From Candidatus Vogelbacteria bacterium RIFOXYD1_FULL_44_32 (GTDB lineage Bacteria; Patescibacteriota; Minisyncoccia; Phycocordibacterales; XYD1-FULL-46-19), in assembly GCA_001823065.1 (NCBI GenBank), contig MHTJ01000004.1:37839-101838 (forward strand): DNA of 64,000 bases, given 5' to 3'. Made by a program: the position numbers and the translations under genes. This document shows, piece after piece, positions 1,705 through 50,935 of the stretch. Below the pieces are notes generated by a model. It was given only the letters and a program-made list of their open reading frames with translations. It made no database searches and was not told the DNA's origin. Every line of letters starts with the position of its first letter. The stretch's first letter is position 1.

Positions 1705-2247
1705 TTGAAGAATAATATAAATTCAATATATTTTATGAAACCATATATTCCAGCGGTATTTATTTTAGGTTTAGTTTTGGTTTCCATTGGTGGTTTTGGT
1801 TATTATCAAAGTGTTAATTTGGCCACTAGTGACAATGGTGCCGAGGTGGTGGTAGCCGATAAGGGTGGCGATCAAACTCCTACCCCAGTGGTGGCAAAGC
1901 CCACTCCGGCACCAAAACCAGTATCCACTCCAGCGCCGACCCCAAAACTTGTGCCTACACCGGTCCCAACTCCAACCCCCGTGGTTCCTGCTCCTATTCC
2001 TACCCCAACTCCTACCCCGTCTGGCTACACTTTAGCTGATGTTTCTATTCACGGTGGTCGTGGCTCTTGCTGGACAGCAATAAATGGTCAGGTTTATGAT
2101 ATTACTAGTTATATCAATCAGCACCCGGGTGGCTCGGCTATTTTGCGGGGGTGTGGGGTCGATGGTACCCATCTCTTTAATGGGGTCGGGGCGCATCGTG
2201 GAACAATTGGTCAGCTTTCTTCATATATTATCGGTAATTTGATTTGA
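1705..2247 (+). CDS. Membrane-anchored cytochrome b5-like heme-binding domain protein with Pro/Thr-rich linker
   Basis: N-terminal transmembrane helix, PTPxP low-complexity linker and a C-terminal b5-like domain with the HPGG motif (VYDITSYINQHPGGSAIL). Confidence 0.65.
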   Translation: MKNNINSIYFMKPYIPAVFILGLVLVSIGGFGYYQSVNLATSDNGAEVVVADKGGDQTPTPVVAKPTPAPKPVSTPAPTPKLVPTPVPTPTPVVPAPIPTPTPTPSGYTLADVSIHGGRGSCWTAINGQVYDITSYINQHPGGSAILRGCGVDGTHLFNGVGAHRGTIGQLSSYIIGNLI

Positions 2248-14307: not shown

Positions 14308-14841
14308 ATGATAATAAAGGAAGAAGGAATAATAAAAGATGGTAAGATTATAGTCCAAATAGGTAAGGGTTTGGGTGCTAGGTCTTTGGAATTTTGCTTT
14401 ACTGATTTTTTTAGTAGTATTAGTTTCCTTAAGGAACAAGAAAAAACCCCAGTCAAATCTGACGGTCTTCGCGCTGGGAGTTGGTTTTTTAAATCAAAAA
14501 TGTATATTGTTTCTGGGCAGACACCATATAGTGATGAAGAGATTAAACTGAGAATTAAACATTTTGTTATTAAAAAGGAAAAAGAACTCACTAAAATTTC
14601 AAAAGAAGTTGAGGCCTTTGAAAATTTTGACCAAGCACGGAGTGCCAGAAGAGGAAGAATTCCAGATGATGTACGATTATTTGTATGGCAAAGGGATGAG
14701 GGTAAGTGTATAAAATGTGGTACAAAAGAAAAATTAGAATTTGATCATATAATACCGGTCGTTGCTGGGGGAGCAAATACACAAAGAAACATTCAACTTT
14801 TGTGCGAATTGTGCAATAGAACTAAAGGTAAAAATATCTAA
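14308..14841 (+). CDS. HNH endonuclease domain protein (AT-rich, probably acquired)
   Basis: C-terminal HNH motif CIKCGTKEKLEFDHIIPVVAGGANTQRNIQLLCELCN. GC content is visibly lower than in the neighbouring genes. Confidence 0.7.
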   Translation: MIIKEEGIIKDGKIIVQIGKGLGARSLEFCFTDFFSSISFLKEQEKTPVKSDGLRAGSWFFKSKMYIVSGQTPYSDEEIKLRIKHFVIKKEKELTKISKEVEAFENFDQARSARRGRIPDDVRLFVWQRDEGKCIKCGTKEKLEFDHIIPVVAGGANTQRNIQLLCELCNRTKGKNI

Positions 14842-17409: not shown

Positions 17410-18279
17410 ATGCAAACCCTCACTGACGACAAGAAAAAATTATTAGCCGAAAAAGCTGGCGACATCCGCCGGTCGGTTATTGAGATGTTGGTGCAAGCGG
17501 GTTCAGGCCACACCGCGGGACCACTGGGGATGGCGGATATTTTTACTGCATTATATTTTCATGTTTTAGAACACGAACCAAGAAACCCCAGCTGGAGCGA
17601 GCGGGACCGGCTGGTGCTGTCCAATGGCCATATTTGTCCGGTGTATTACGCCACTTTGGCGCACGCTGGCTATTTTCCCGTGGAGGAACTGAAAACTTTA
17701 CGTCAGTTTGGGTCACGCTTGCAGGGGCACCCCCACCGCGAATATTTGCCTTATGTGGAGACTAGCTCTGGTCCCTTGGGGTCGGGGCTGTCGCAGGCTT
17801 GTGGTATGGCGCTCGCGGAGAAAATGGATCATGGCCAAAATTCCAACAAATATATTTATTGCCTAATGTCCGACGGCGAGTTGCAAGAAGGCAACACGTG
17901 GGAGGCGGTGCTCTTTGCCGGCAAACAGAAATTTTCTAATCTAATCGTTATTATTGACCGCAACAATATTCAGATTGATGGTTTTACGGAAGACATTATG
18001 CCGCTGGAACCCTTGGCCGAAAAATTTAGCGCATTTAATTGGCATGTCATAGAAATTGATGGTCACAACTTCGACGACATTATCTCGGCGGTGGGCGAGG
18101 GGCAAGCGGTATTTGGCCGGCCGGTGGTGATAATTGCTCACACCACGCCGGGCAAAGGTGTACCGGCTTTTGAGAAAAAGTACGAGTGGCATGGTAAACC
18201 ACCAACCAAAGAGGAGGGGGAGATGGCGTTAAAAGAATTGCGGACATTAGGAGGTAAAATTAAAAGTGAAAATGATTGA
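17410..18279 (+). CDS. Transketolase, N-terminal subunit (split transketolase)
   Basis: Thiamine-diphosphate-binding motifs GSGHTAGPLGMADIF and SNGH. Confidence 0.85.
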   Translation: MQTLTDDKKKLLAEKAGDIRRSVIEMLVQAGSGHTAGPLGMADIFTALYFHVLEHEPRNPSWSERDRLVLSNGHICPVYYATLAHAGYFPVEELKTLRQFGSRLQGHPHREYLPYVETSSGPLGSGLSQACGMALAEKMDHGQNSNKYIYCLMSDGELQEGNTWEAVLFAGKQKFSNLIVIIDRNNIQIDGFTEDIMPLEPLAEKFSAFNWHVIEIDGHNFDDIISAVGEGQAVFGRPVVIIAHTTPGKGVPAFEKKYEWHGKPPTKEEGEMALKELRTLGGKIKSEND

Positions 18280-18943
18280 TATGGAAAATAACTTTCAACA
18301 TTTTCCACTGACCGAAAAGCTTCACACTGATGTTTTGGAAGAAAAATATGGGCCAGTTAGAGCCGAGGTTTTAAGGCATGATAATGAAATTAGAGAAGTA
18401 CATATTGTTGATGAAAGTGGAGTGTCTAGGACTTATGCCCTTACTTTTTTAACTTTTGATAAAAATAATAAGGAAATAGCTGAAATTGATCAGGAAATAA
18501 AAAATGGAGGACTAATTGGTAAGACTTTTCGTGACCATGGTTATGAAATTAGAAAGAATGTTATTCACGTCTACACTGTGGAATTGCCTGATTGGCTTAA
18601 ATCTAGATTTGAAAATGAATCAAACGAAGCTAAAGCTCGACTGTCGGAATTTTATGCTAAAAAGAAAGATGAATCACCGCTAATTTATGGTATTGTAACT
18701 GAAATATATAGTCCAGATTTTAGAGAACCTGAAATAAATAACATTGATACTAAACAAGATAATCCTTCTACCAACGCTTTTGAGTTGGTGGGTATAACAA
18801 AAGGCGAGATTTGGGACAGGATTGGCGATGGTAATTTGTGGAGCGGTTTGCAAGAAAAATTAGACCGAGCCAAAGAATTGGCGAAAACTGAAGAAAATAA
18901 TTTGGCGGAGCGGGTGGCAAGATATTTAAATAAAGATAATTAA
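18266..18943 (+). CDS. Hypothetical protein inserted between the two transketolase subunit genes
   Basis: AT-rich ORF with no recognised motif. Its start overlaps the tkt-N stop by 14 nt and its stop abuts the tkt-C start. Confidence 0.55.
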   Translation: MKMIDMENNFQHFPLTEKLHTDVLEEKYGPVRAEVLRHDNEIREVHIVDESGVSRTYALTFLTFDKNNKEIAEIDQEIKNGGLIGKTFRDHGYEIRKNVIHVYTVELPDWLKSRFENESNEAKARLSEFYAKKKDESPLIYGIVTEIYSPDFREPEINNIDTKQDNPSTNAFELVGITKGEIWDRIGDGNLWSGLQEKLDRAKELAKTEENNLAERVARYLNKDN

Positions 18944-18944
18944 T

Positions 18945-19940
18945 ATGTTAAATACTTCCCAAAAACTAAACCCAAAACTTTTTGACCTCAATGTGGAGCA
19001 GGTGCCTATTCGTGACGGGTTTGGGCAGGGGTTGGTGGAAGCGGGCGAGAAAAACGAGCAAGTAGTGGCGCTGTGTGCCGACCTTGTTGAGTCCACACGC
19101 ATCGAAAAATTTGCCAAACAGTTTCCCGAGCGATTTGTGGAAATGGGGGTGGCTGAACAAAACTTGGTGACGGTCGCTTCGGGGCTCGCTTCGATGGGCA
19201 AAATCCCTTTTACCGCCTCGTACGCTTGTTTTTCGCCAGGGCGCAACTGGGAACAGATTCGTACGACCATTACCTACAACGATGTACCGGTGAAAATTGT
19301 GGGGGCTCATGCTGGTATCTCGGTTGGCCCCGATGGGGGCACCCACCAAATGCTTGAAGACATTGCCCTAATGCGGGTGTTACCCAATATGGTGGTGGTG
19401 GTGCCGTGCGACAGTGTGGAAGCCAAGAAGGCGACACTCGCAATAGCGGAAAATGGTAAACCTAGCTATATACGCCTCGCTCGCAACAAGTCGGCTGTGG
19501 TTACTACCGCCACGTCGCCGTTTGAAGTGGGGAAAGCTAATGTGCTAGTTGACCCGGATCGGGCCGAAGTGGCGGTGATTGCTTGTGGGCAAATGGTCTA
19601 CTATGCCCTAATGGCGGCGCGCCAACTGGAGGCCGAGGGGATAAAAGTCTCGGTGACCAATTTGCATACTATTAAGCCACTAGACATGGAAACTATTCAC
19701 CGCGTCGCCGCCAACTCGGGCGCGGTGGTGACAGTCGAGGAACACCAAGTGGTTGGTGGGATGGGGAGCGCGGTGGCGGAAAGTTTGGCAAAAACTTTTC
19801 CGGTGCCGATAGAGTTTCTCGGGGTGCAAGATAAATATGGCCAGTCGGGCGAGCCAGGCGAACTTTTGGAGCACTATGGTTTGGGGGTGAAAGATATTGT
19901 TGGGGCCGTGAAGAAAGTCATAGGACGGAAGAAACGGTAG
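18945..19940 (+). CDS. Transketolase, C-terminal subunit
   Basis: Transketolase pyrimidine-binding domain FVEMGVAEQNLVTVASGLA. Confidence 0.85.
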   Translation: MLNTSQKLNPKLFDLNVEQVPIRDGFGQGLVEAGEKNEQVVALCADLVESTRIEKFAKQFPERFVEMGVAEQNLVTVASGLASMGKIPFTASYACFSPGRNWEQIRTTITYNDVPVKIVGAHAGISVGPDGGTHQMLEDIALMRVLPNMVVVVPCDSVEAKKATLAIAENGKPSYIRLARNKSAVVTTATSPFEVGKANVLVDPDRAEVAVIACGQMVYYALMAARQLEAEGIKVSVTNLHTIKPLDMETIHRVAANSGAVVTVEEHQVVGGMGSAVAESLAKTFPVPIEFLGVQDKYGQSGEPGELLEHYGLGVKDIVGAVKKVIGRKKR

Positions 19941-22790: not shown

Positions 22791-23783
22791 CAATTTTTTA
22801 GGAGCGTAATCAGCTGGAGCTTCAGCTAAATATTTTTCAATTTTTTCTTTGGTCAAAAGGCCAGATTGGGCACCAACAGATTGCACTACTGACATCGAGT
22901 TTATCGGCGCGCGCTTGAGCGCCTCCGGGACACTCATTCCTAAAGCAATAAAAGAAGTAAAGGTCGAGGCAAAAGCGTCACCGGCTCCCGTGCGACTTAT
23001 TGGTGATTTTGGGTCGGGGTAAATTGGCATTTGCCACATGTCGGTACCGTCAAAAGTGTAGGCGCCATTTGGCCCGTCAGTCAGACCCACTATTTTGGGA
23101 CCCAAATTTTTAATGCTGGTCAATAGATTTTTCACATCAGTCTCGTCTGGAGTTTTTAATATTCGCCGTGCTTCTTCTAGGTTGCAGACAAATATTTCGG
23201 TCCGAGCAAAAATATCGGGCAGTTTATCTGGGCCCAAATTTATTTGAAAAGTCCCTGGTTGAAAGGCTAATTTGGTTTCGGGGTGAGCCAAAAGCCAGGT
23301 CGCCAACTGGTGGTGAAAATCAAGCGAGTTTTCACCTAGCGAGCTAAGGTAAATCCAGCGCGGGTTGCCAATATCCGGCAAACTATAATCATATTTTTCG
23401 TGCTTAATTAAAATAGTCCGTTCGGCGCCATACCACAAAACATAATGATAATTGGTTTTTTGGCCGGCATTGGTTTTTACCAAATCAGTCGCGACATTTT
23501 CCTTAGCTAAACTTGCTAGGGCTTCTTTACCTTCGTCGTCATCACCAATATTAGTCAGAAGACCAGTAGTAAGGCCCAGACGGGAAGCCGAGACAGCGGC
23601 ATTGGGCGAATTGCCGACCGCAGGCACAATGGTGACCGACTCGTAGGGGATTTTGTCACCGAAAGCCAGACAGATTTTGCAATTGTCTTTATTAATATCA
23701 CAATTGACCTCGGCCTCTTGCAGTTTAATAAAAGCATCAGTAGTAATATCGCCAATTGCTAAAATGTCTAGTTTTTTATTCAT
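22788..23783 (-). CDS. PfkB-family carbohydrate kinase (ribokinase-like)
   Basis: LDILAIGDITTD N-terminal motif and the GAGDAF anion hole. Start chosen at MNKKLD, which has an upstream TATAAT and AAAGG. Confidence 0.8.
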   Translation of the reverse strand: MNKKLDILAIGDITTDAFIKLQEAEVNCDINKDNCKICLAFGDKIPYESVTIVPAVGNSPNAAVSASRLGLTTGLLTNIGDDDEGKEALASLAKENVATDLVKTNAGQKTNYHYVLWYGAERTILIKHEKYDYSLPDIGNPRWIYLSSLGENSLDFHHQLATWLLAHPETKLAFQPGTFQINLGPDKLPDIFARTEIFVCNLEEARRILKTPDETDVKNLLTSIKNLGPKIVGLTDGPNGAYTFDGTDMWQMPIYPDPKSPISRTGAGDAFASTFTSFIALGMSVPEALKRAPINSMSVVQSVGAQSGLLTKEKIEKYLAEAPADYAPKKL

Positions 23784-23819
23784 TTCTAAATTATACCTTT
23801 CTCTGTAATTATTCCCAAA

Positions 23820-24554
23820 AATATTGGACACCGAGTGTCCAATATTTTAAACTTATGATAATGAGAAAGATAAAAATTTGTGAGGGGGAGTATTATCACA
23901 TTTACAATCGTGGAGTAGATAAAAAAGACATTTTTATTGATAAACGAGATTACGCCCGGTTCTTATTTTGTGTTTTGTTTTTCCAATCGCCACTTTCATT
24001 AGTTAATCCTCCCTCCTATATTAATTATTTTATTGGACACTCGGTGTTCAATATTTCTCAAAAAATTAAAAAACAAATAATTAGTGATAAGTATGTTGAG
24101 TTGGTGTCTTTTATATTTATGCCCAATCATTTCCATTTAATTGTTAAGGAAAAGGTGGCAGGGGGAATTTCTCAATATATGCAAAGAATTCAAAATTCTT
24201 TTACAAAATATTTTAATACAAAATATAAAAAGAATGGGCATTTATTTCAGGGGCCATATCAAATTGTTTATATTGAAGATGATGAACAGTTACTTTATTT
24301 ATCATCATATATACATCGGAATTGTCGGGTACTTAATGGTTGGAAGAATAAGGAGGAAAAGTATCCGTGGTCAAGCTACTCTGATTTTTTAGGCCCAAAT
24401 CGGTTTGGTGGTCTATTAGAACCAGAAATTATTATGTCCGAATTTAATAATGCTGGTGATTATAAAATAGAGGTTCAAAACAGTGGCGCCAAAGAGATAA
24501 TTGAAGATTTATTAATTGATAATTGATAATATTGGACACTCGGTGTCCAATATT
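23820..24554 (+). mobile_element. IS200/IS605-family (or RAYT-like) element with 27-bp palindromic termini
   Basis: aatattggacaccgagtgtccaatatt at 23820-23846 and its reverse complement at 24528-24554 flank a HuH tyrosine-transposase ORF. Confidence 0.7.
23855..24526 (+). CDS. tnpA: IS200-like HuH tyrosine transposase (TnpA / REP-associated-like)
   Basis: HIYNRG, HuH motif MPNHFHLIV and catalytic-Tyr motif YIHRN. Start taken at MIMRKIKI. Confidence 0.75.
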   Translation: MIMRKIKICEGEYYHIYNRGVDKKDIFIDKRDYARFLFCVLFFQSPLSLVNPPSYINYFIGHSVFNISQKIKKQIISDKYVELVSFIFMPNHFHLIVKEKVAGGISQYMQRIQNSFTKYFNTKYKKNGHLFQGPYQIVYIEDDEQLLYLSSYIHRNCRVLNGWKNKEEKYPWSSYSDFLGPNRFGGLLEPEIIMSEFNNAGDYKIEVQNSGAKEIIEDLLIDN

Positions 24555-31438: not shown

Positions 31439-31894
31439 ATGGCAGATACCCAATCAATTAAAGTTCTGCGCGATCAGACGGGAATTTCTCTAGCCGAATG
31501 CAAGAAAGCGCTAGATGAGGCTGGTGGCGATTTGGCCAAAGCCCAGGTGGTTTTGAAAGCGAAGGGGGCTGAAACGGCGGACAAAAAATCTGACCGGAAC
31601 CTTGGTTCCGGGGTAGTGGAGTGTTATATTCACGGGGCAGGGGCGATTGGGGCTATGGTAGAATTGGCTTGCGAGACCGACTTTGTGGCCAAAAATGTTG
31701 ATTTTAAAGCTTTAGCTTCGGATATTGCACTACATATAGTGGCCAGTGCTCCCGAAACGGTAGCCGAGTTGCTGGCTCAAGAATTTGTCAAAGACCCGAG
31801 TCAGACGGTGGAGACGCTTATCCAACAGGGAACTCAAAAATTTGGCGAAAGGATTGTGCTCACTCGCTTTGCGCGCTTTGCTCTAGGGGCTTAG
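31439..31894 (+). CDS. tsf: Elongation factor Ts (short form)
   Basis: LRDQTGISLAECKKALDEAGGDLAKA UBA-like N-terminus. Confidence 0.85.
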   Translation: MADTQSIKVLRDQTGISLAECKKALDEAGGDLAKAQVVLKAKGAETADKKSDRNLGSGVVECYIHGAGAIGAMVELACETDFVAKNVDFKALASDIALHIVASAPETVAELLAQEFVKDPSQTVETLIQQGTQKFGERIVLTRFARFALGA

Positions 31895-32894: not shown

Positions 32895-33602
32895 ATGGAA
32901 GAAACTAAACAGTTGGGACACCTACACCCTCTCACCCAAATGATGAGTGAGATGTCGGATATTTTTCGCGAAATGGGTTTTCGGGTGGCCGATGGGCCCG
33001 AGAAAGAGTCCGAATGGAATAACTTCGACGCTTTAAATATCCCGGCCAATCACCCGGCGCGAGCGATGCAAGATACCTTCTGGGTAAAGCCGCATACAGC
33101 TGGCCAGCTGCTTCGAACTCATACCACTTCAGTATCACTACGGGAATTGGCAAAAAAACAGCTGCCACTACGGGTAGTGTCGCCTGGTCGTGTTTTCCGT
33201 AATGAAGCGACTGATGCTACTCATGAGGCGCAGTTCTATCAGTTTGATGGTCTCGCTATCGACCGACCCGGGGTAATTTCGATGGCTCACCTGAAAGGGG
33301 TGTTGTCGACTTTGTATAAAAGACTTTTTGGCGAAAATATCGAGATGCGCTTCCGGGCTAGCTTCTTTCCGTTTGTGGAGCCGGGAGTAGAAGTGGATAT
33401 TAAATGGGGCGACCGCTGGCTGGAAGTGGTCGGTGCCGGACTTTTGCACCCCAATGTTTTTAAAGCAGCCGGGATAGACCCGAATGAGTGGCAGGGGCTC
33501 GCGTTTGGTGGTGGGGTGGACCGCTTGGCGATGATCAAATACGGTATTGAGGATGTCCGGCATTTTTACCAAGGGGATACGCGTTTTCTCAAACAATTTT
33601 AA
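32895..33602 (+). CDS. pheS: Phenylalanine-tRNA ligase alpha subunit (compact)
   Basis: Class II aaRS motifs FRNEATDATHEAQFYQFDG and FFPFVEPGVEVD. Start is 7 nt after TATACT. Confidence 0.9.
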   Translation: MEETKQLGHLHPLTQMMSEMSDIFREMGFRVADGPEKESEWNNFDALNIPANHPARAMQDTFWVKPHTAGQLLRTHTTSVSLRELAKKQLPLRVVSPGRVFRNEATDATHEAQFYQFDGLAIDRPGVISMAHLKGVLSTLYKRLFGENIEMRFRASFFPFVEPGVEVDIKWGDRWLEVVGAGLLHPNVFKAAGIDPNEWQGLAFGGGVDRLAMIKYGIEDVRHFYQGDTRFLKQF

Positions 33603-33604
33603 TT

Positions 33605-34870
33605 ATGTGGTTCAAATATAAAGAAATCGAGAGTCATTTTGTGACGTCCTTGCCGGGAGTAGGAGCGGTGGCCGAGGCGCTTATTAACCATGCATTTGAG
33701 GTGGAAGAAATGGTAGAAAAAGATGGTGATATGGAAATGGATATTAAAATTTTGCCTGATAGGGCTAGTGACGCTAAAAGTGTGTTAGGTGTCGCGCGAG
33801 AAGTATCGGCTGTTATGAATTTGCCGCTTAAAGATGAATATAAATTTACAACGACCAAAGAATCGGCTCGAACTACGATAGAATTTTCGGCCAAAGTCAT
33901 TTCCGATCTGGTTGGTGTCGAATTTTCAGTTGAAGATATAAAGAGTTACCTCTCTCGAGTAGGAGTACTCGTTGAAGGAGAAGAAACACTGACAGCTCAT
34001 ATCCCCGCTGAGCGACAAGATTTAAATATTAAAGAAGATTTGGCCGATGAGGTGGCTCGCCTTTATGGTTACGCTAATGTACCGGCGCGGGCACTGCTTG
34101 CGCCGGTTGTCGCCCCTGTCGACCACCCTGACTTTATCCTTTCTAACCAAATTCGTGAATTCTTCGCCCGCGGTGGCTTTACGGAAGTTTATGGCTACTC
34201 TTTTACCGCAAAAGGCGTGGTGGAAATTGAAAAACCCTTGGCTTCCGATAAGGCATATCTGCGCACTAATTTAACTGATTGGATGTCAGCTACTTTAGTT
34301 TCTAATATCAAGCACTCACTATTTCCCAAAGATGAAGTAAAACTTTTTGAGATTGGTAATGTTTTTGTTTCCGAAGACGAAGAACAAAAGCGGATTTGCG
34401 TGGCTGCTAATATTTCACTTCAGTCTGTTATTAACGAACTAAAACAAGAATTTAATATCACCGAATTACCCGAGATTAAAAAGATCGAAGGTGGAGAAGT
34501 AGTTGAACTTTTGCTTTCAAGCTTAAAAGCTAAGGACGGCGCGGCCGATCTTTCGCCGTTTATTAAATCCGATGTCAACTATAAACCAGTCTCGGTCTAC
34601 CCCCGCATTGTCCGTGATATCGCTCTTTTTGTACCAGCCGGTACTGCTAGTAGCGAAGTGGGGGAGATGATTAAACAAAACGCAGGCCCGCTCCTTGCCG
34701 AAGGTCCTATCCTTTTTGATGAATTCACGAAGCCGGGCGAAGACCGTACTTCGCTCGCATACCGCCTGGCTTTCCAGGCTTCCGATCGGACATTGGAAGA
34801 TGCTGAAGTAAATACCCTAATGGAAAAAGTTTATAAGGTGGTGAAGGAAAGAGGTTGGGAAGTCAGATAA
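33605..34870 (+). CDS. pheT: Phenylalanine-tRNA ligase beta subunit (compact, lacks N-terminal tRNA-binding domain)
   Basis: B3/4-like region and a C-terminal FDX-ACB-like domain (SLAYRLAFQASDRTLEDAEV). It immediately follows pheS. Confidence 0.8.
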   Translation: MWFKYKEIESHFVTSLPGVGAVAEALINHAFEVEEMVEKDGDMEMDIKILPDRASDAKSVLGVAREVSAVMNLPLKDEYKFTTTKESARTTIEFSAKVISDLVGVEFSVEDIKSYLSRVGVLVEGEETLTAHIPAERQDLNIKEDLADEVARLYGYANVPARALLAPVVAPVDHPDFILSNQIREFFARGGFTEVYGYSFTAKGVVEIEKPLASDKAYLRTNLTDWMSATLVSNIKHSLFPKDEVKLFEIGNVFVSEDEEQKRICVAANISLQSVINELKQEFNITELPEIKKIEGGEVVELLLSSLKAKDGAADLSPFIKSDVNYKPVSVYPRIVRDIALFVPAGTASSEVGEMIKQNAGPLLAEGPILFDEFTKPGEDRTSLAYRLAFQASDRTLEDAEVNTLMEKVYKVVKERGWEVR

Positions 34871-34987
34871 GTGTGGCTAAATCGCCTTCGGCGATTACCC
34901 GGCCTTACCGGATTTTTTGGCAAGGTTTAGGGGAAGTGAGATAAAAAAGTAAAAAATAAACAGAAAAAGCCCTGTAGGCAGGACTTT

Positions 34988-35015
34988 TTCTGTTTATTGA
35001 CAAAAAATATAGATA
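34988..35015 (+). promoter_or_regulatory. Consensus sigma70-type promoter (TTGACA-16nt-TATAAT)
   Basis: TTGACA at 34988-34993 and TATAAT at 35010-35015; it is preceded by a hairpin terminator at ~34960-34985. Confidence 0.6.
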
Positions 35016-35149
35016 GTGTATAATATACTCAGACTGATTTCTGCTCCAAAGAAGGTTTAAAAAAATTGGTCGGAGCGCTGTTGCTTTGGCCACTCACTGG
35101 GACGTAAAGTTTTTTGCCGGCCATTGTGCGATGGTTAAGGAGGTATGAG

Positions 35150-35476
35150 TTGAATTTTTTTAGGCTCCTGTCAAAGAACCTGATAAACTTATTTGACACG
35201 TTCTTTGTCAGTAAGTTTATGGTGGGGGCGATGGTGTTTTTGTTCATCCTTGTCTCCTACACAGCAGGGCGTGTCCCAGCTTGGGAAAAACCTTGGACCA
35301 CCATGGAGAAATTCATGGAAGGGGGAAAAGTGCTGGCGGCGTTTGGGTTACTCGTAGTGATCGCAACCGTGATGTTGGCGGTTGGGTACGCTCTACGGGG
35401 CGAGGAAGTCGTCAGTGATACCCCAGAGGGATGGAGGAGGTGGTTGAAGAGGAACGATAATAAAAGTAGAAAATAA
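35150..35476 (+). CDS. Small membrane protein (island cargo)
   Basis: AGGAGG 6 nt upstream of a TTG start. Two predicted transmembrane helices (MVGAMVFLFILVSY and VLAAFGLLVVIATVMLAVGYAL). Confidence 0.5.
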   Translation: MNFFRLLSKNLINLFDTFFVSKFMVGAMVFLFILVSYTAGRVPAWEKPWTTMEKFMEGGKVLAAFGLLVVIATVMLAVGYALRGEEVVSDTPEGWRRWLKRNDNKSRK

Positions 35477-35576
35477 TATGAGCCGTGGGATGATGTTCAT
35501 CCCACGGCCTTTGCATGTATAATCCAATTGATAAAATAAGGAAAAATGCTAGTATAAATTAAAATAATAAGATTTT

Positions 35577-37595
35577 ATGCCATTAAAGGAAGATAAATAT
35601 AAGCTCTACTTGGCTTCTGGCATCCGCCTGTGGACGCTATTTTTCAAAGATGGTTATTCCCCTTATTTCAATAAAAAAGTTTCCCTGTTTGAACCGGCGC
35701 TCATAGACAATCAGTACACCGGTGAGCATCGCAAAATACCGATCAAAATTGCGACTAAGGACTTGGGTGAGATAAACAAATGCGATGCGGTGTTAGCCTA
35801 TATGAAAATGTACGATACCCAAGGCAATGGGCCAACGGGTACCGACAGCTCTTGGGAATGTGGTTATGCTATTGGGCAGGAAAAACCGACTATTATGCTG
35901 GTGGAAGATTTGGAACACCTCGACTATTACACATCCCAGTGGATGGTGACTTTTAGTATTGGTGCCATTTTAACTACAGATAAAGAGGTGGCGGAAAGTG
36001 CCCGGCACAGTGATAAGTTTACCCATACCGCCATTTTACTCTGCGAAAACAAAGAGCAGTTTGAAGACAAAATTATAGAGTATTTAGACAAATACTACCG
36101 CTCTATCTATGCACGTGAAGGCGAGATAAACTATTCCGTTGACCAGGAAATTAGAAAGTATGTCGACGAGAAAAATTTGCAGGAGTTTTTTGAGGAGTGC
36201 CAGAGTGGTATACCAGTTGAAGATAAACCCACCACTTGGTATTACGACAAAAAAACTAAATATAATGACCCCACCACCTATCTGGCGGTCTGCACGTCCG
36301 AGGTGGAGCGGGCCGGGCGTCTGGAAAACATAATTGAAAATAATTTTAACGACTTGCCACAGGTCCTTAAAAGTGAAATCGGACAGTTGCTGGAGCAGAT
36401 GGAAAATGACGGAGCCAGTCACGTGGCCGAGATGGCAAGCTACTGGCTTAATATTCCAGCGGCCAAGGTTAAAGACCGCCGGCAGGGCAAGAAAAAAACT
36501 CGCCCAACTATTTTTTATGAGTTATTTGATTTGGTCAGCCACCACATTGTCGCTTCGGAAAGATATTTTGAAGCAGATTTTGTTTATAAAGCCGGAGCAG
36601 TAATTGAAATATATAATTGGCTAAATACCTATGCCATAGATGATGTGTTTGACAGTTCGGCCACTAGGCAGGGTGAGTCGACACTGCATGAAAAATATGG
36701 CAGCCGGCGCAATGCTCTTCTGGTGGGAGGTATTGGCCATTGTCTTGCTCTTTATTTACTGTACGAGTTGACCAAAAAACAACCGGAAGCAGCCAAGGAC
36801 CTGCTTTCGAGCTTAAACAATGTTCAGAAACTAATGTATCTGGGGCAACCTCACGACATTGCTCTCACTTTTGACAGTCGTTGGCAATTAAAATCTTTTA
36901 TAAAAAAGAATAGTTTAGATACGGCCTTACAGCTTTATTTTAAAAGAATATACGGCATTTGCGGGGCGTTTTACGAGGAGATTGGTCGGATGGCGATGAA
37001 GGCGACCAATGTTGGTGCACAATTTTATGATCAAGAGGAAGTCGAGGAAGCCTGTGTTTCCATTGCGCGGCAATTTGGCTTAGTGCAGATGATTCGCAAC
37101 GATCTCGGCGATTTTATTACGGCGGCAGATATGCCGGGGATGAGCAAGGGGATGAAAGATACCTCTCATAACGACATCGCCGAAGGCAAGCTAACACTAC
37201 CTGTCATCTATACACTATTTAGTCCAGAGGTGTCGACGCGCGATAAAAAAATAGTTATCCGGGCACTTGGTAATCGACGACTGAAAGATTCGGCACGAGC
37301 GGAAATCAGTCGAATCATCTGGGAAAGTGGGGCGATAGAATTTTCCCTGCAGTTTATCGACTACTATGTGCGGGCGGTGCGAAGACAATATGTGCGCCAT
37401 ATTAACGAGACGCCGACCCGTTTGAAATGGATTTTGAAGCTGATGGATATTACCCCGCTCATTGATATTTCTTTTCGGCGGGTGGCTTTGGACAGAAAGT
37501 GGCGCAAACTAGAGCCCTTGCCTTTTTCGGACGACATGGTCGGTGAGTTGGATAAACTGGCCGAGAGGGGTAATTTTTTGGAATCACGGAAGTAA
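35577..37595 (+). CDS. Fusion protein: N-terminal nucleoside 2-deoxyribosyltransferase/LOG-like domain + C-terminal trans-isoprenyl-diphosphate-synthase-like domain
   Basis: N-terminus YKLYLASGI...DLGEINKCDAVLAYMKMYD...GTDSSWECGYAIGQEKPTIML matches the NDT motif DxxLGxYIPDEEDxGxxxELGYAxxxGK, including the catalytic Glu. C-terminus has an FARM-like AIDDVFD...RRN, a SARM-like VQMIRNDLGDF and GKxxxxDIAEGKLTLPVIY. Confidence 0.7.
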   Translation: MPLKEDKYKLYLASGIRLWTLFFKDGYSPYFNKKVSLFEPALIDNQYTGEHRKIPIKIATKDLGEINKCDAVLAYMKMYDTQGNGPTGTDSSWECGYAIGQEKPTIMLVEDLEHLDYYTSQWMVTFSIGAILTTDKEVAESARHSDKFTHTAILLCENKEQFEDKIIEYLDKYYRSIYAREGEINYSVDQEIRKYVDEKNLQEFFEECQSGIPVEDKPTTWYYDKKTKYNDPTTYLAVCTSEVERAGRLENIIENNFNDLPQVLKSEIGQLLEQMENDGASHVAEMASYWLNIPAAKVKDRRQGKKKTRPTIFYELFDLVSHHIVASERYFEADFVYKAGAVIEIYNWLNTYAIDDVFDSSATRQGESTLHEKYGSRRNALLVGGIGHCLALYLLYELTKKQPEAAKDLLSSLNNVQKLMYLGQPHDIALTFDSRWQLKSFIKKNSLDTALQLYFKRIYGICGAFYEEIGRMAMKATNVGAQFYDQEEVEEACVSIARQFGLVQMIRNDLGDFITAADMPGMSKGMKDTSHNDIAEGKLTLPVIYTLFSPEVSTRDKKIVIRALGNRRLKDSARAEISRIIWESGAIEFSLQFIDYYVRAVRRQYVRHINETPTRLKWILKLMDITPLIDISFRRVALDRKWRKLEPLPFSDDMVGELDKLAERGNFLESRK

Positions 37596-37666: not shown

Positions 37667-38392
37667 ATGAAAATTATCGGTGTTAAGACGCCTCTGTTAA
37701 AAGCAGGAGATGATCTAATTCAGTTTATAATAAAAAACATCCCATCTCTCTCGGAGGGAAGTGTTGTTGTGGTCACATCAAAAATTGTAGCCTTGGCTGA
37801 AGGTCGGCTTGCTCCTTTGTCGGCAAAGGAAGCTATTATCAAGCGCGAGTCAAAGGAGGTGATTGAAACTCCCTATGGTTTCCTAACACTAACTAAAGAT
37901 GGCTGGTGTGTAAATGCCGGCGTTGATGAATCTAATGCTAAAGATGGTCTTATTTTACTACCCCTTGATGCTTTTCAGTCGGCCGAAGTTTTGTGTCGCT
38001 CTTTGCGTCAGAAATTTAAAATAAAAAAACTGGGTGTGCTTATTACTGATACTAAGAGTGTGCCGCTTCGCGTGGGCACAGTTGGGCGGGCGCTTGGTTT
38101 TGCTGGCTTTCAGCCACTGCGGAGCTATATCAACAAGCGTGATCTTTTTGGCCGTAAAAGTCGTTTTACAGAAAGTAATCTGGCAGACTCTCTCGCGGCG
38201 GCGGCAGTACTTCTGATGGGCGAGGGAAGCGAGCGTGTTCCACTGGCTGTCATACAGGAGGCACCTGTTACTTTTGTGGGAGTTGGCACTAGTCAGACTA
38301 CTAAACTGTCGTTACCGCCACAGCTAGATATTTTTCGTTACGTTTTTAGTCGGGCGTCTTCACCTCGTGCAAAGAAAAAACCGAAACGCTAG
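37667..38392 (+). CDS. CofE-like F420-0:gamma-glutamyl ligase family protein
   Basis: VVTSKIVALAEGR and NAGVDESN-type motif GVDESNAK characteristic of the CofE/FbiB N-domain family. Confidence 0.55.
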   Translation: MKIIGVKTPLLKAGDDLIQFIIKNIPSLSEGSVVVVTSKIVALAEGRLAPLSAKEAIIKRESKEVIETPYGFLTLTKDGWCVNAGVDESNAKDGLILLPLDAFQSAEVLCRSLRQKFKIKKLGVLITDTKSVPLRVGTVGRALGFAGFQPLRSYINKRDLFGRKSRFTESNLADSLAAAAVLLMGEGSERVPLAVIQEAPVTFVGVGTSQTTKLSLPPQLDIFRYVFSRASSPRAKKKPKR

Positions 38393-38422: not shown

Positions 38423-39438
38423 TTACAGCCCCTTTTCCAAGCTCTTCAAGACTTTCAGGTAAAGTCTTTTCACGATTTCCTCCTGCTTCTTGCCGGAGGC
38501 GGCATAGTGGTCTAGACCGGGGGCGGCGTTGATCTCAATGACGGTGTAGCGACCGGGCGCTTTTGTGATGTCGCTTTTTACCATGAGGTCGACACCGCAC
38601 ATTCGCAGACCCATGTCGGCTGTCAGTCGGATTGCGATTTTCTTAAACTCAGGATGGACGGCACCGGTGACATCCACCGAGTCGCCGCCGGTAGACAGGT
38701 TGGCATTGTCGAGCAGGTAGACTACTTCGCCCAGTTTTGGCACCGAGGAAAAGGCGAGTCCTTGCCGAGCCAGTTTTCCCGCAATGCGAGGGTCTCGCAC
38801 CTTTATCTTGGTGTCACGGCTTGAAGCGATGAAGTTTTCCTGCTTTTTGCGCAGGAGGGCGCGGATACTCAAACGCCCGTCGCCTGTGACGCTAAGTGGT
38901 TGCCGCTCATAGGCCGAGATCAGCTCGCCATCAAGGATGACCAGTCGATAGTCTTTGCCGGCGATCGGTCTCTGGACGAGGGCGATCTTGTCGCGGGTAA
39001 ATATGTAGCGCATCGCTTCATAAAATTCCCGCCTGTTGTGGACAAAAGCCACGCCGGTGCCTTGGCTGCCGCTGTTTGGTTTTACGACCACCGGAAAGCC
39101 AATTTTCTTGGCGTATTGGTAGGCGGCAGACAGGTTGCGCTCGGATCCGATTGCCTTGCACCACCAGTCGGCATAAAATGCCTCGCCGGGGACAGTGGGG
39201 TAGCCCATCTTCTTCATAAAGAAGTTGGCCCAATCCTTATCCTTGGCGATGTCCGAGGCACCGACCGGGTTTAGGTCCACCGTATTGTACCGGATGTACC
39301 GTTTGCGCCCACTTTTGTAGACGATCTGGCCGACGATGCCCCATGTGGGTTCCATCAATACTTTCGCCCCGATCAAGGGAGCGATTTCTTGGAGTAGGGT
39401 GCCGACGAGCGGCGTGGTGTTGCGCTTTTTCTTCTTCA
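38423..39438 (-). CDS. Stand-alone ATP-grasp ligase with cyanophycin-synthetase-type ATP-grasp domain
   Basis: VVVKPNSGSQGTGV...NANLSTGGDSVDVTGAVHPEF...GVDLMV...VIEINAAPGLDHY. Start chosen at MKKKKRNTTP (RBS GAAGGA); a longer N-terminus is possible. Confidence 0.65.
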
Positions 39439-39776
39439 TAGGGTTAATCCTTCTTTCTGCTTTTTTCTGCTTTGTTTCAAAATCTTGTTCATTCATACCA
39501 CAAATAATAGTAGCTGGCAAAGATTTGAACTCCTGTTTCTGTGATAAAATATGACTACTTTGTCTAATTACCGTTCTCTCTAAATAGGACTTTTTGTACC
39601 TAATGGGTATAAATTGGCTAAAATGGTGGCAGAGATGGGAGGGGGAAATAAGTACTAATTTGACTTTGTTTTTAGTGACTAAATATGCTAAAATGGAGGT
39701 ATAAAAATAGTATTTTTTGACCATATTTTAAGCCAATTTTACCCCGTCTTGTCGAGGTATTTATTTACATATTAAG

Positions 39777-49952: not shown

Positions 49953-50020
49953 TTTTTAGGTTTTTGGCTGGGGTTGGCAGTAGAGTTTTAATAAGTTTTT
50001 TAAAAACAGATCTTTCCCAT

Positions 50021-50935
50021 ATGGCCAATCGTCATTTATCGAGAAGCGTGGCAATGCAGGCCCTTTTCGAGTGGGATTTTAATGATATTTCAGCGTCTAA
50101 AGCTGATGAGCTAGTTAATCGGGTGATAGCCGACTTTGCCCCGGGTTTAGACAACCCGGGTTTTGCGCGGGAGCTAGTGACAGGGGTGGCCGAAAAGCAA
50201 GACAAGCTTGACGCGATTATTGAAAAGGCCGCCCCCGAGTGGCCACTCCAGCATATTGCGATTGTGGACCGTAATGTCTTGCGTCTGGGTCTCTATGAGC
50301 TTTTATTTGGCGACAAAAAAGAGGTGCCGGCGCGGGTCGCGATCAATGAAGCGATTGAACTCGCCAAAACTTTTGGTGGGGAAAATAGCGGTCGGTTTGT
50401 CAATGGGGTACTGGGGGCAGTTTATAAAGAAATGGGCGAGCCGGGTAAATTTGATGTTCCAGCCAAGAAAAAGCGCCCGAAAGATGTCCCCTATGAAGAA
50501 ATGCCGATTGAAAAGCTGGGTGGGGCGGTGGTTTTTTGTGAACATGACAGTGAAATATATTTAGCACTCGTGCATGATATTTTTGGCTACTGGACCTTGT
50601 CCAAGGGGCATATTGAAGCTGGTTTGGCAGTCGAGGACGGGACGGCCCAAGAGATTTTAGAGGAATTGTCGGTGCCGATTATAATCAAAGATAGTCTAGG
50701 AAAAAATGAATATATCGCGTCGGATCCAGAGAAAGGGAAAATTCGTAAACAGGTCAATTATTTTCTCGCCGAATGTACCGATGAAAATTTTGCCAAGCTA
50801 AAACTAGCCGCGGATAAGGGCGGATTAGATGATTTACGTTGGTTTAAACTGGAGGAAATTGCCGATTTGAAAATGTATGACGACATTTTACCTTTCGTGA
50901 CAAAAGGGATAAAACTTGTTATGGATAGTAGATAA
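50021..50935 (+). CDS. nusB: NusB antitermination factor fused to a C-terminal NUDIX-like domain
   Basis: NusB region SRSVAMQALFEWDF...LRLGLYELLF...AINEAIELAKTFGGE. C-terminal ~150 aa contain a degenerate Nudix-box-like GHIEAGLAVEDGTAQEILEELSV. Confidence 0.7.
   Translation: MANRHLSRSVAMQALFEWDFNDISASKADELVNRVIADFAPGLDNPGFARELVTGVAEKQDKLDAIIEKAAPEWPLQHIAIVDRNVLRLGLYELLFGDKKEVPARVAINEAIELAKTFGGENSGRFVNGVLGAVYKEMGEPGKFDVPAKKKRPKDVPYEEMPIEKLGGAVVFCEHDSEIYLALVHDIFGYWTLSKGHIEAGLAVEDGTAQEILEELSVPIIIKDSLGKNEYIASDPEKGKIRKQVNYFLAECTDENFAKLKLAADKGGLDDLRWFKLEEIADLKMYDDILPFVTKGIKLVMDSR

What the first reader, a model, noticed from the sequence alone, without database searches (positions are those of the whole stretch)
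35577..37595. Unusual domain fusion: nucleoside 2-deoxyribosyltransferase/LOG-like N-domain joined to a trans-isoprenyl diphosphate synthase-like C-domain (672 aa)
The N-terminal ~160 aa match the NDT-family catalytic core, including the Glu in ECGYAIGQEKP and the preceding DLGEINKCDAVLAYM. The C-terminal ~330 aa carry an FARM-like AIDDVFD...RRN, a variant SARM (RNDLGD rather than DDxxD) and the GK...EGKLTLPVIY block of polyprenyl synthases. I know of no such combination. NDT/LOG-fold domains process nucleotides and N-glycosidic bonds, including cytokinin activation and conflict-system nucleotide sensing. A prenyl-diphosphate-binding partner would fit synthesis or hydrolysis of a prenylated nucleotide-like molecule. 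It is the main cargo of the islet described above.
Basis: partly seen in the sequence, partly recalled or inferred. Interest (0 to 1): 0.85.

Follow-up and report, generated by a model that had tools for sequence, protein, structure and literature searches.

The report
NDT-like / prenyl-synthase-like fusion enzyme
A candidate-phyla-radiation bacterium encodes a conserved, uncharacterised enzyme that joins a nucleoside-bond-cleaving domain to an altered prenyl-diphosphate domain, and stand-alone relatives of the first domain always sit beside prenyltransferase genes, so the two chemistries probably work together in an unknown pathway.

Summary

The family is small and was found only in Patescibacteria. 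It is conserved end to end and always fused. It has no conserved neighbours, no mobile or defence signature and genome-typical composition, so the "islet cargo" idea is not supported.

The C-domain keeps the first Asp-rich motif (FARM) and the diphosphate-binding lysines. Three elongation hallmarks are invariantly changed: SARM DDxxD to NDxxD, KT to IC, RRG to RQx. The pocket helix is an invariant polar/aromatic YNWxNTY. A canonical FPP/GGPP synthase is therefore unlikely.

Stand-alone ~170-aa orthologues of the N-domain lie directly beside lycopene-elongase-like UbiA prenyltransferase genes in all seven independent loci examined. A more distant NDT-like protein appears fused to a UbiA-like domain. 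The link between the NDT-like domain and prenyl transfer is thus supported independently. The substrate, possibly a prenylated nucleobase or nucleotide, remains inferred. I rate it a new variant of known kinds, of moderately high interest.

The parts
35577..37595 (+). Whole gene: 672-aa NDT-like / IPPS-like fusion protein (OHA58258.1, UniRef100_A0A1G2QCU2)
   Evidence: ORF list. 100% match to P0001. Pfam PF05014 + PF00348. AF2 pLDDT 88.1, pTM 0.89.
35577..36050 (+). N-domain (aa 1-158): nucleoside 2-deoxyribosyltransferase-like Rossmann-type fold
35838..35870 (+). GTDSSWECGYA motif (aa 88-98) holding invariant D90 and E94. E94 (35856-35858) aligns with the catalytic Glu nucleophile of NDTs.
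   Evidence: D90, W93, E94, G96 and Y97 are invariant in 51 fusion sequences and in the stand-alone forms. HMM alignment to T. brucei NDT 2a0k puts E94 on the 'AFEVG' Glu and D70 on 'CDAVIADL'.
36051..36269 (+). Inter-domain linker (aa 159-231): three helices followed by a poorly conserved loop (aa 211-231)
   Evidence: Secondary structure of the AF2 model. Alignment A1.
36270..37592 (+). C-domain (aa 232-672): all-helical trans-isoprenyl diphosphate synthase fold with a family-specific C-terminal extension
   Evidence: PF00348 at 63.6 bits. Foldseek gives 1wy0, 8f8k, 3oyr, 5jfq with TMt 0.70-0.77. PDB profile hits E 1e-7 to 1e-3.
36483..36506 (+). Region I equivalent QGKKKTRP (aa 303-310). 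K307 and R309 are invariant (the GKxxR phosphate-binding motif).
   Evidence: Invariant columns of A2.
36612..36674 (+). Helix D with invariant YNWxNTY (aa 346-352), the FARM DDVFD (aa 355-359) and R364-Q-G in place of RRG
   Evidence: Invariant columns Y346, N347, W348, N350, T351, Y352, D355, D356, D359 and R364. Alignment to yeast and Pyrococcus GGPPS shows RQx against RRG.
36957..36962 (+). I461-C462, invariant, in place of the conserved Lys-Thr of IPPS region IV
   Evidence: Alignment to 1wy0 pairs 'ygiCGaf' with 'SGKTGAL'. Invariance.
37098..37112 (+). Variant SARM N508-D509-L-G-D512 (NDxxD instead of DDxxD)
   Evidence: N508 and D509 are invariant and D512 is at least 90% conserved. It aligns with the DDxxD of three PDB IPPS sequences.
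37143..37190 (+). Flexible lid loop SKGMK...SHNDIAEGK (aa 523-538). K524 and K538 correspond to the GK...GKxT lysines.
   Evidence: Alignment to 1wy0. pLDDT below 50 at aa 522-526, as expected for a mobile lid. K527, S530, H531, D533, G537 and K538 are invariant.
35481..35555 (+). Upstream hairpin (35481-35509) and two promoter-like sites (35510-35555). The gene probably has its own promoter.
   Evidence: Consensus scan only, so weak evidence.

Best explanation
Shown:
- The gene encodes a rigid two-domain protein restricted to Patescibacteria.
- The N-domain has the NDT/DNPH1/MilB-type fold and keeps the catalytic Glu (E94) and the conserved Asp residues (D70, D90).
- The C-domain has the trans-IPPS fold. 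It keeps what is needed to bind and ionise an allylic diphosphate with Mg2+: FARM D355/D356/D359, R364, K524/K538 and the region I residues K307/R309.
- The C-domain has invariantly lost three hallmarks of IPP chain elongation. The first SARM Asp is Asn, region IV Lys-Thr is Ile-Cys, and the second Arg of RRG is Gln or another residue.
- The helix that normally lines the growing-chain pocket is an invariant polar/aromatic YNWxNTY.

Inferred:
- The C-domain is not a housekeeping FPP/GGPP synthase. It is a prenyl-diphosphate-dependent alkylating domain that uses a short allylic donor (DMAPP or GPP) and an acceptor other than IPP.
- It acts in tandem with the N-domain, which cleaves or transfers an N-ribosidic bond of a nucleoside or nucleotide through E94.
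- The most likely overall chemistry is formation and release of a prenylated nucleobase or nucleotide-like metabolite. This follows the same two-step logic as isopentenyltransferase plus LOG in cytokinin synthesis.
- In other Patescibacteria the same NDT-like module works with membrane-bound, lycopene-elongase-like UbiA prenyltransferases instead. The IPPS-like domain is therefore the functional analogue of that UbiA partner.
- The gene is an accessory, vertically inherited, solitary gene. It is not islet cargo.
For: Fold and motifs.

Conservation:
- 51 full-length homologues at 36-66% identity.
- 28 further metagenome loci hold only full-length genes or fragments cut by a contig end. None is split into separate genes.
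- pTM 0.89 indicates a fixed inter-domain geometry.

An independent link between the NDT-like module and prenyl transfer:
- The N-domain subfamily is tiny and sharply delimited. Ten clusters reach E<=1e-30 among 1.84 billion representatives: 3 fusions and 7 stand-alone forms.
- Every stand-alone member whose context could be read lies directly next to 1-4 UbiA-family genes on the same strand: L006/L014, L007, L012, L013, L015, L016/17 and L018-20. Gene order is reversed in L018-20.
- In the searches run here, the closest relative of these UbiA genes with an interpretable gene context lies in a crtD-lyeJ-cruF-crtB-type cluster of apparent haloarchaeal origin, that is, lycopene elongase, a DMAPP-dependent alkylation of a terminal C=C (PMC9410494).
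- A more distant NDT-like protein, P0103, carries a UbiA-like membrane domain in the same polypeptide.
- In an NJ tree the fusion N-domains form one clade nested within the UbiA-linked stand-alone forms.
- None of the 26 UbiA subfamily members lies on the long contigs that carry the fusion. No IPPS-like gene lies in the stand-alone loci.

NDxxD in the SARM position is the signature of chrysanthemyl diphosphate synthase, an FPPS-derived enzyme that couples two DMAPP irregularly (10.1101/169417, and my own knowledge of Rivera et al. 2001).
Against: - No substrate or product is known and nothing was assayed.
- The NDT Pfam hit is marginal (29.1 against 28.8 bits). No PDB sequence hit passes E 0.05.
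- Region I, GQxxD and both lid lysines are kept, so residual IPP-type condensation cannot be excluded.
- The stand-alone clusters look like membrane-lipid or aryl-lipid pathways (Lnt-like, adenylating enzyme, PEMT/ICMT-like methyltransferase, tyrosine ammonia-lyase). A nucleotide substrate is not obviously needed there.
- Whole-genome co-occurrence could not be examined. This covers a canonical IspA, UppS, the MEP or MVA pathway, and UbiA genes elsewhere in fusion genomes.
- The UbiA assignment for P0103 is below the Pfam threshold (28.9 against 34.2 bits).
Confidence: 0.45

Rival explanations
1. Two unrelated housekeeping activities fused by chance. The C-domain would be the organism's ordinary short-chain prenyl diphosphate synthase, supplying FPP or GGPP to UppS for cell-wall carrier lipid. 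The N-domain would be an ordinary nucleoside or deoxynucleoside salvage enzyme.
For: PF00348 scores well above threshold. Region I, FARM, GQxxD and the lid lysines are conserved. CPR bacteria depend on nucleoside salvage, and the window carries RpiB, Rpe and a split transketolase. The neighbours are housekeeping genes.
Against: - NDxxD, KT to IC and RRG to RQx are invariant, and the pocket helix is polar.
- Every NCBIfam IPPS equivalog model scores far below its cut-off (best 43 bits against 450).
- The family is rare: 3 clusters at 50% identity in 1.84 billion proteins. That is not expected for an essential gene.
- The N-domain subfamily is linked to prenyltransferases in two other genomic arrangements.
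Confidence: 0.2
2. The N-domain is a non-catalytic nucleotide-binding or oligomerisation module that regulates or assembles a prenyl-diphosphate enzyme. The enzyme would be the IPPS-like domain here and UbiA in the operonic forms.
Against: The exact catalytic constellation of NDTs is conserved across fusion and stand-alone forms at 35-50% identity: E94 and D90 are invariant, and Y11 and D70 are conserved in at least 90% of fusion sequences, plus the G-x-A-x-x-x-x-KP context. There is no defence or signalling context.
Confidence: 0.12
3. The C-domain is a catalytically dead IPPS-like scaffold, like the small or non-catalytic subunits of heteromeric prenyl synthases. The NDT-like domain would be the only enzyme.
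For: Three canonical catalytic features are lost.
Against: The FARM aspartates, R364, N508/D509, K524, K527, K538 and about 60 further C-domain positions are invariant over 36-66% identity. That pattern is typical of a working active site. Non-catalytic subunits usually lose the FARM itself (my own knowledge).
Confidence: 0.08
4. It is the cargo of a mobile islet or a component of an anti-phage or conflict system that senses or modifies nucleotides.
For: NDT/SLOG-type domains occur in conflict systems (my own knowledge). Hairpins and a perfect sigma-70 consensus promoter flank the region upstream of the gene.
Against: - No credible PADLOC hit.
- No homologue in phages, plasmids or IMG/VR.
- GC 0.446 against 0.457 for the window.
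- No mobility genes next to it.
- No recurrent neighbour in 37 loci.
- Partial synteny in relatives at 63-65% identity.
Confidence: 0.03

Closest known systems
Nucleoside 2-deoxyribosyltransferases and NMP N-glycosidases of the same fold (L. leichmannii NDT 1f8x, D. psychrophila NDT 7o62, C. thermalis NDT 8rh3, MilB 4ohr, BcmB 4jen, DNPH1)
   Different: - Only 17-21% identity, and the Pfam score is at threshold.
- A 2-residue insertion (D90-S91) precedes the Glu.
- The family has its own invariant 'YYxxQWMV(T/S)F' motif and a long C-terminal helix.
- It is never found alone in a salvage context. It is either fused to an IPPS-like domain or lies next to UbiA genes.
Short- and medium-chain trans-isoprenyl diphosphate synthases (e.g. 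P. horikoshii GGPPS 1wy0, yeast GGPPS 2dh4, M. tuberculosis Rv2173 8f8k)
   Same: The all-helical fold matches (TMt 0.70-0.77). FARM DDxxD, region I K/R, GQxxD and the lid lysines are present.
   Different: - SARM is NDxxD, KT is IC, and RRG is RQx.
- The pocket helix is polar/aromatic.
- There is an extra C-terminal extension of about 60 aa and an N-terminal NDT-like domain.
- All NCBIfam equivalog models fail by a factor of about 10 in bit score.
Chrysanthemyl diphosphate synthase (an FPPS-derived irregular prenyltransferase of Asteraceae)
   Same: It has an IPPS fold with NDxxD in place of the second DDxxD (10.1101/169417). It uses DMAPP as both donor and acceptor rather than elongating with IPP (my own knowledge).
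   Different: No specific sequence relationship was shown. The plant enzyme has no NDT domain. The comparison rests on one shared substitution.
Cytokinin pair: isopentenyltransferase (IPT) plus LOG phosphoribohydrolase
   Same: This is the logic proposed here: prenylation of a nucleotide base, then N-glycosidic cleavage by a Rossmann-type domain related to NDT (my own knowledge).
   Different: IPT is a P-loop fold, not IPPS. LOG is PF03641, not PF05014. No activity was shown here, so this is a 'works like' analogy only.
Lycopene elongase LyeJ/CrtEb (UbiA family), the partner of the stand-alone NDT-like proteins
   Same: The CPR UbiA-like neighbours hit the same NCBIfam model family (NF009516). 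A relative at E 1.6e-34 sits in a crtD-UbiA-cruF-crtB cluster. LyeJ alkylates a terminal isoprene C=C with DMAPP (PMC9410494).
   Different: All scores are below the NCBIfam cut-off. No carotenoid genes lie in the CPR clusters. The acceptor in CPR bacteria is unknown.

Membership tests
Nucleoside 2-deoxyribosyltransferase superfamily (PF05014) | Profile match at or above Pfam's gathering score | tested here: met
   29.1 bits against cut-off 28.8 over aa 35-115, so marginal. Precomputed Pfam lists PF05014 for about half of the homologues.
Nucleoside 2-deoxyribosyltransferase superfamily (PF05014) | Three-layer alpha/beta NDT fold | tested here: met
Nucleoside 2-deoxyribosyltransferase superfamily (PF05014) | Catalytic Glu nucleophile and conserved Asp residues | tested here: met
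   E94 is invariant and aligns with the catalytic Glu of T. brucei NDT. D70 aligns with 'CDAVIADL'. D90 is invariant but lies in a 2-residue insertion, so its equivalence is uncertain.
Nucleoside 2-deoxyribosyltransferase superfamily (PF05014) | Deoxyribosyl transfer or N-glycosidase activity on nucleosides or nucleotides | not testable with these tools
   Needs an enzyme assay.
trans-Isoprenyl diphosphate synthases (PF00348), superfamily level | Profile match above the gathering score, and the all-helical IPPS fold | tested here: met
   63.6 bits against 27. Foldseek TMt up to 0.77 to GGPPS, FPPS and long-chain synthases.
trans-Isoprenyl diphosphate synthases (PF00348), superfamily level | First Asp-rich motif DDxx(xx)D followed by Arg | tested here: met
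   D355-D356-V-F-D359 and R364 are invariant.
Canonical chain-elongating IPPS (FPPS/GGPPS/long-chain) | Second Asp-rich motif DDxxD | tested here: not met
   N508-D509-L-G-D512, with Asn invariant in 51 sequences.
Canonical chain-elongating IPPS (FPPS/GGPPS/long-chain) | Region IV Lys-Thr | tested here: not met
   Replaced by invariant I461-C462 in the alignment to 1wy0.
Canonical chain-elongating IPPS (FPPS/GGPPS/long-chain) | RRG after the FARM (the second Arg binds IPP) | tested here: not met
   R364-Q365-G366 here. Homologues have RQ(G/K/N) or RSG.
Canonical chain-elongating IPPS (FPPS/GGPPS/long-chain) | Passes an NCBIfam equivalog model for a named synthase | tested here: not met
   The best scores are 43.4 bits against cut-off 450 (encapsulin cargo prenyltransferase) and 41.8 against 500 (GGPP synthase).
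Canonical chain-elongating IPPS (FPPS/GGPPS/long-chain) | IPP + allylic-PP condensation activity | not testable with these tools
   Needs an enzyme assay.
Anti-phage defence or conflict systems | Match to a known defence protein model, or a recurrent defence neighbourhood | tested here: not met
   PADLOC gives only a 13-bit chance match. No recurrent neighbours.

The most novel reading that the evidence does not exclude
The IPPS-fold domain is a new kind of nucleobase or nucleotide prenyltransferase, a third fold for this chemistry after P-loop IPT and the cis-prenyltransferase-fold Rv3378c. Together with the fused NDT-like N-glycosidase, it makes a free prenylated purine or pyrimidine (cytokinin-like or terpene-nucleobase) in episymbiotic Patescibacteria. 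The UbiA-linked stand-alone forms would make a membrane-anchored version of the same class of molecule.
Probability: 0.2. Interest if true: 0.85.

Novelty: new variant of a known kind. Interest (0 to 1): 0.62.

Why it matters
If the two domains act on one metabolite, this would be an undescribed route joining nucleotide N-glycoside chemistry to isoprenoid chemistry. It would occur in a radiation of ultra-small symbiotic bacteria whose lipid and signalling metabolism is almost unknown.

It would also add a bacterial IPPS-fold enzyme with the NDxxD signature, which is otherwise associated with irregular (non-head-to-tail) prenyl coupling.

The recurring pairing of an NDT-like module with three different prenyl-diphosphate enzymes gives a concrete, testable hypothesis. 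The three are a fused IPPS-like domain, an operonic LyeJ-like UbiA and a fused UbiA-like domain. The protein is soluble and has a confident structural model, so it could be expressed and tested directly.

Tried and rejected
- **Islet or mobile cargo.** Rejected on several grounds. Composition is genome-typical. No full-length homologue was found in phages, plasmids or IMG/VR. No neighbour recurs across 37 loci. Relatives share partial synteny with the window.
- **Defence system.** PADLOC was negative.
- **Functional link to the CofE-like and ATP-grasp neighbours in the window.** These are not found next to any other fusion gene.
- **Split versions of the fusion.** None was found in 28 metagenome loci. 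No IPPS-like gene lies in the stand-alone loci.
- **UbiA, Lnt-like, adenylating enzyme or TAL homologues near fusion genes.** None was found within the flanks.
- **Co-occurrence on the same contig, judged by contig length.** No UbiA-subfamily member sits on a fusion-bearing long contig. This is only a weak negative.
- **PDB sequence search with the N-domain profile.** Marginal hits only, best E 0.057.
- **hhalign of P0103 and P0081 against the UbiA alignment.** Uninformative with single sequences.
- **AFDB fold search.** The library was unavailable.
- **Literature searches for the domain combination.** Nothing relevant was found.
Full report
**1. The observation**

The window carries an ATG-initiated ORF at 35577..37595 (+) of 672 aa. 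Its product is 100% identical to OHA58258.1 / UniRef100_A0A1G2QCU2. That entry is an 'uncharacterized protein' of Candidatus Vogelbacteria bacterium RIFOXYD1_FULL_44_32, a candidate-phyla-radiation (Patescibacteria) bacterium.

Pfam assigns PF00348 (polyprenyl_synt) at 63.6 bits over aa 304-568. It assigns PF05014 (Nuc_deoxyrib_tr) at 29.1 bits over aa 35-115, against a gathering score of 28.8. The NDT call is therefore marginal on sequence, and I tested it by structure.

The architecture is:
- an NDT-like domain, aa 1-158;
- a three-helix linker plus a variable loop, aa 159-231;
- an IPPS-fold domain, aa 232-672, with a family-specific C-terminal extension.

**2. The family**

The word-indexed search of 5.8 billion proteins returned 51 clusters. 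All are full length (593-724 aa) at 36-66% identity. Where named, all come from Patescibacteria: Vogelbacteria, Buchananbacteria, Paceibacterota and 'Patescibacteria group'. They are labelled only 'hypothetical', 'polyprenyl synthetase family protein' or, by JGI, 'GGPP synthase/nucleoside 2-deoxyribosyltransferase'.

A genome scan added a Doudnabacteria example. A metagenome scan added 28 loci. These hold only full-length genes or fragments cut by contig ends, and none is split.

Conservation runs through both domains and the linker helices. Together with pTM 0.89, this argues for one functional unit rather than a casual fusion.

**3. Genomic context of the fusion**

I clustered the neighbours of 37 fusion loci. 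No protein family occurs in more than four of them, and several of those are the same genome sampled twice.

The window's downstream CofE-like gene and the convergent ATP-grasp gene are not found beside any other fusion gene. GC of the gene is 0.446, against 0.457 for the window.

No full-length homologue exists in the phage, plasmid or IMG/VR collections, and PADLOC finds nothing credible.

Two relatives at 63-65% identity keep parts of the same chromosomal region. L023 has rpsB-tsf upstream of the fusion, and L024 has gyrB adjacent.

The rest of the window is ordinary CPR housekeeping: translation factors, aminoacyl-tRNA synthetases, gyrB, dnaE and the non-oxidative pentose-phosphate pathway. 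The 'islet cargo' and 'conflict system' readings are therefore not supported.

**4. The N-domain**

Across the fusions, E94, D90, W93, G96, Y97, K103 and P104 are invariant. Y11 and D70 are conserved in at least 90% of sequences.

A profile of the domain aligns 'sDAVlAym' with 'CDAVIADL' of T. brucei NDT. It aligns 'WECGyA' with 'AFEVGCA', which places E94 on the catalytic nucleophile. The E-value is weak, 0.057. D90-S91 form a two-residue insertion relative to NDTs, so the equivalence of D90 to the NDT 'DxGT' Asp is uncertain.

The catalytic apparatus of an N-glycosidase or transferase thus appears intact. Whether the substrate is a nucleoside or a nucleotide could not be decided.

**5. The C-domain**

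I compared it with solved IPPS sequences and read conservation from the invariant columns.

The family keeps:
- region I (K307, R309);
- the FARM (D355, D356, D359) with R364;
- GQxxD (G423, Q424, D427);
- the lid lysines (K524, K538).

The family invariantly departs from elongating synthases at three catalytic hallmarks:
- SARM DDxxD is N508-D509-x-x-D512;
- the region IV Lys-Thr is I461-C462;
- the second Arg of RRG, the IPP-binding one, is Gln, or Ser in one subgroup.

Helix D normally lines the hydrocarbon pocket with small or hydrophobic residues. Here it reads as an invariant Y346-N347-W348-x-N350-T351-Y352.

All NCBIfam equivalog models for named synthases fail by about ten-fold in bits.

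NDxxD at this position is the signature of chrysanthemyl diphosphate synthase, which couples two DMAPP irregularly (10.1101/169417; my own knowledge). I infer that the domain still binds and ionises an allylic diphosphate but does not elongate with IPP in the normal way.

**6. Evidence from elsewhere: the key finding**

Searching with the N-domain alone revealed stand-alone proteins of about 170 aa at 40-52% identity.

An exhaustive profile search of 1.84 billion representatives shows that this subfamily is tiny and sharply bounded. Ten clusters reach E<=1e-30, three of them fusions and seven stand-alone. Apart from one 135-aa fragment at E 9e-19, the next hits come at about 1e-10.

Every stand-alone member whose surroundings could be read lies directly beside one to four tandem UbiA-family prenyltransferase genes on the same strand, with gaps of 5-30 bp:
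- L006/L014 (Paceibacterota);
- L007;
- L012 (Saccharibacteria, four UbiA copies);
- L013;
- L015;
- L016/L017;
- L018-L020, where the order is reversed.

These clusters usually also encode an Lnt-like N-acyltransferase, a PaaK-like adenylating enzyme, and sometimes a PEMT/ICMT-like membrane methyltransferase and a tyrosine ammonia-lyase.

The UbiA genes form their own small subfamily of 26 clusters. Their best NCBIfam model is NF009516. A relative at E 1.6e-34 sits in a crtD-UbiA-cruF-crtB cluster of apparent haloarchaeal origin. That is the context of lycopene elongase LyeJ, which alkylates a terminal C=C with DMAPP (PMC9410494).

A more distant NDT-like protein, P0103 (446 aa), carries a polytopic UbiA-like domain in the same chain. 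Its Pfam UbiA score is 28.9 bits, below the cut-off of 34.2, and a second Asp-rich motif is recognisable.

A rough NJ tree puts all fusion N-domains in one clade nested within the stand-alone forms (no support values). No UbiA-subfamily member lies on the long contigs that carry the fusion. No IPPS-like gene lies in the stand-alone loci.

The NDT-like module is thus tied to prenyl-diphosphate enzymes in three independent arrangements. The IPPS-like domain looks like the analogue of the UbiA partner.

**7. Mechanism**

Shown: the two folds, the retained catalytic residues, the altered IPPS motifs, and the genomic association with prenyltransferases.

Inferred, with about 0.45 confidence for the general form:
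- The C-domain ionises a short allylic diphosphate and alkylates an acceptor other than IPP.
- The N-domain cleaves or transfers an N-ribosidic bond through E94.
- The two act on one metabolite.

The specific version, a prenylated nucleobase or nucleotide by IPT+LOG-like logic, has a probability of about 0.2.

Rivals and their probabilities:
- an ordinary FPP/GGPP synthase fused to a salvage NDT, 0.2;
- a regulatory, non-catalytic N-domain, 0.12;
- a dead C-domain scaffold, 0.08;
- mobile or defence cargo, 0.03.

The main weakness is that the stand-alone clusters look like lipid or aryl-lipid pathways in which a nucleotide substrate is not obviously needed.

**8. Novelty and verdict**

Both domains belong to known superfamilies. 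The combination, the invariant non-canonical IPPS active site and the recurrent pairing of the NDT-like module with prenyltransferases are undescribed in the searchable literature.

I file it as a new variant of known kinds. It is a member of the NDT and IPPS superfamilies. It is not a member of the canonical chain-elongating synthases, because three defining features were tested and not met. Interest is 0.62.

Noticed in passing
L013 2976-10186; L007 1150-8109; L015 2182-9108; L016 569-7090; L018 2592-8725; L012 21-3691: Several Patescibacteria share a gene cluster. It holds a PaaK-like adenylating enzyme, an Lnt-like (LNT_N + CN_hydrolase) protein, 1-4 tandem lycopene-elongase-like UbiA prenyltransferases and a stand-alone NDT-like protein. 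Some copies add a PEMT/ICMT-like membrane methyltransferase and a FlxA-like tyrosine ammonia-lyase. It looks like an undescribed prenylated (aryl-)lipid pathway.
   Followed up: partly
L050 711-2051 (protein P0103): A 446-aa protein has an N-terminal NDT-like domain and a C-terminal polytopic UbiA-like domain. The Pfam UbiA score is below threshold and the first Asp-rich motif looks degenerate. It would be a second type of fusion between an NDT-like domain and a prenyltransferase-fold domain. Other distant NDT-like fusions were also seen, such as P0082, NDT-like + NUDIX.
   Followed up: partly
window 37667-38392 (+) and 38423-39724 (-): A CofE-like gamma-glutamyl ligase lies convergent with an ATP-grasp ligase. 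Its best NCBIfam model is TIGR04132 'putative folate metabolism gamma-glutamate ligase', below cut-off. The ATP-grasp ligase most resembles the cyanophycin-synthetase, GshAB or RimK group. This resembles a CofE/CofF-type oligoglutamate-tailing pair in a CPR genome. It is not conserved next to other fusion genes.
   Followed up: no
window 34955-35476: A 20-bp-stem hairpin (34955-34998) sits after pheT. It overlaps by two bases a perfect sigma-70 consensus promoter (TTGACA-16-TATAAT, 34997-35024). Downstream is a 120-aa ORF (35114-35476) with a hydrophobic stretch and no family match, then a second GC-rich hairpin (35481-35509).
   Followed up: no
window 49964-50935 (+): A single 323-aa protein combines a NusB domain with a NUDIX hydrolase domain.
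   Followed up: no
window 1705-3539 (+): A cytochrome b5-like haem-binding protein (180 aa) is followed by a protein with a ferric-reductase-like transmembrane domain and an NAD-binding domain (431 aa). This is a membrane redox pair that seems unexpected in a fermentative CPR genome.
   Followed up: no
window 14308-14841 (+); 23756-24526 (+): An HNH endonuclease ORF lies between gatB and gap. An IS200-like Y1 transposase ORF lies near the glycolytic genes. These were the only mobile-element-like genes found among the ORFs scanned. Neither is near the fusion gene.
   Followed up: no
window 31439-31894, 32895-33602, 33605-34870: Translation components appear strongly shortened: EF-Ts is 151 aa, PheS 235 aa and PheT 421 aa (B5, core and FDX-ACB domains only).
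   Followed up: no
window 17410-19940 (+): The transketolase is split into N-terminal (289 aa) and C-terminal (331 aa) genes. A 225-aa ORF with no Pfam match (18266-18943) lies between them.
   Followed up: no
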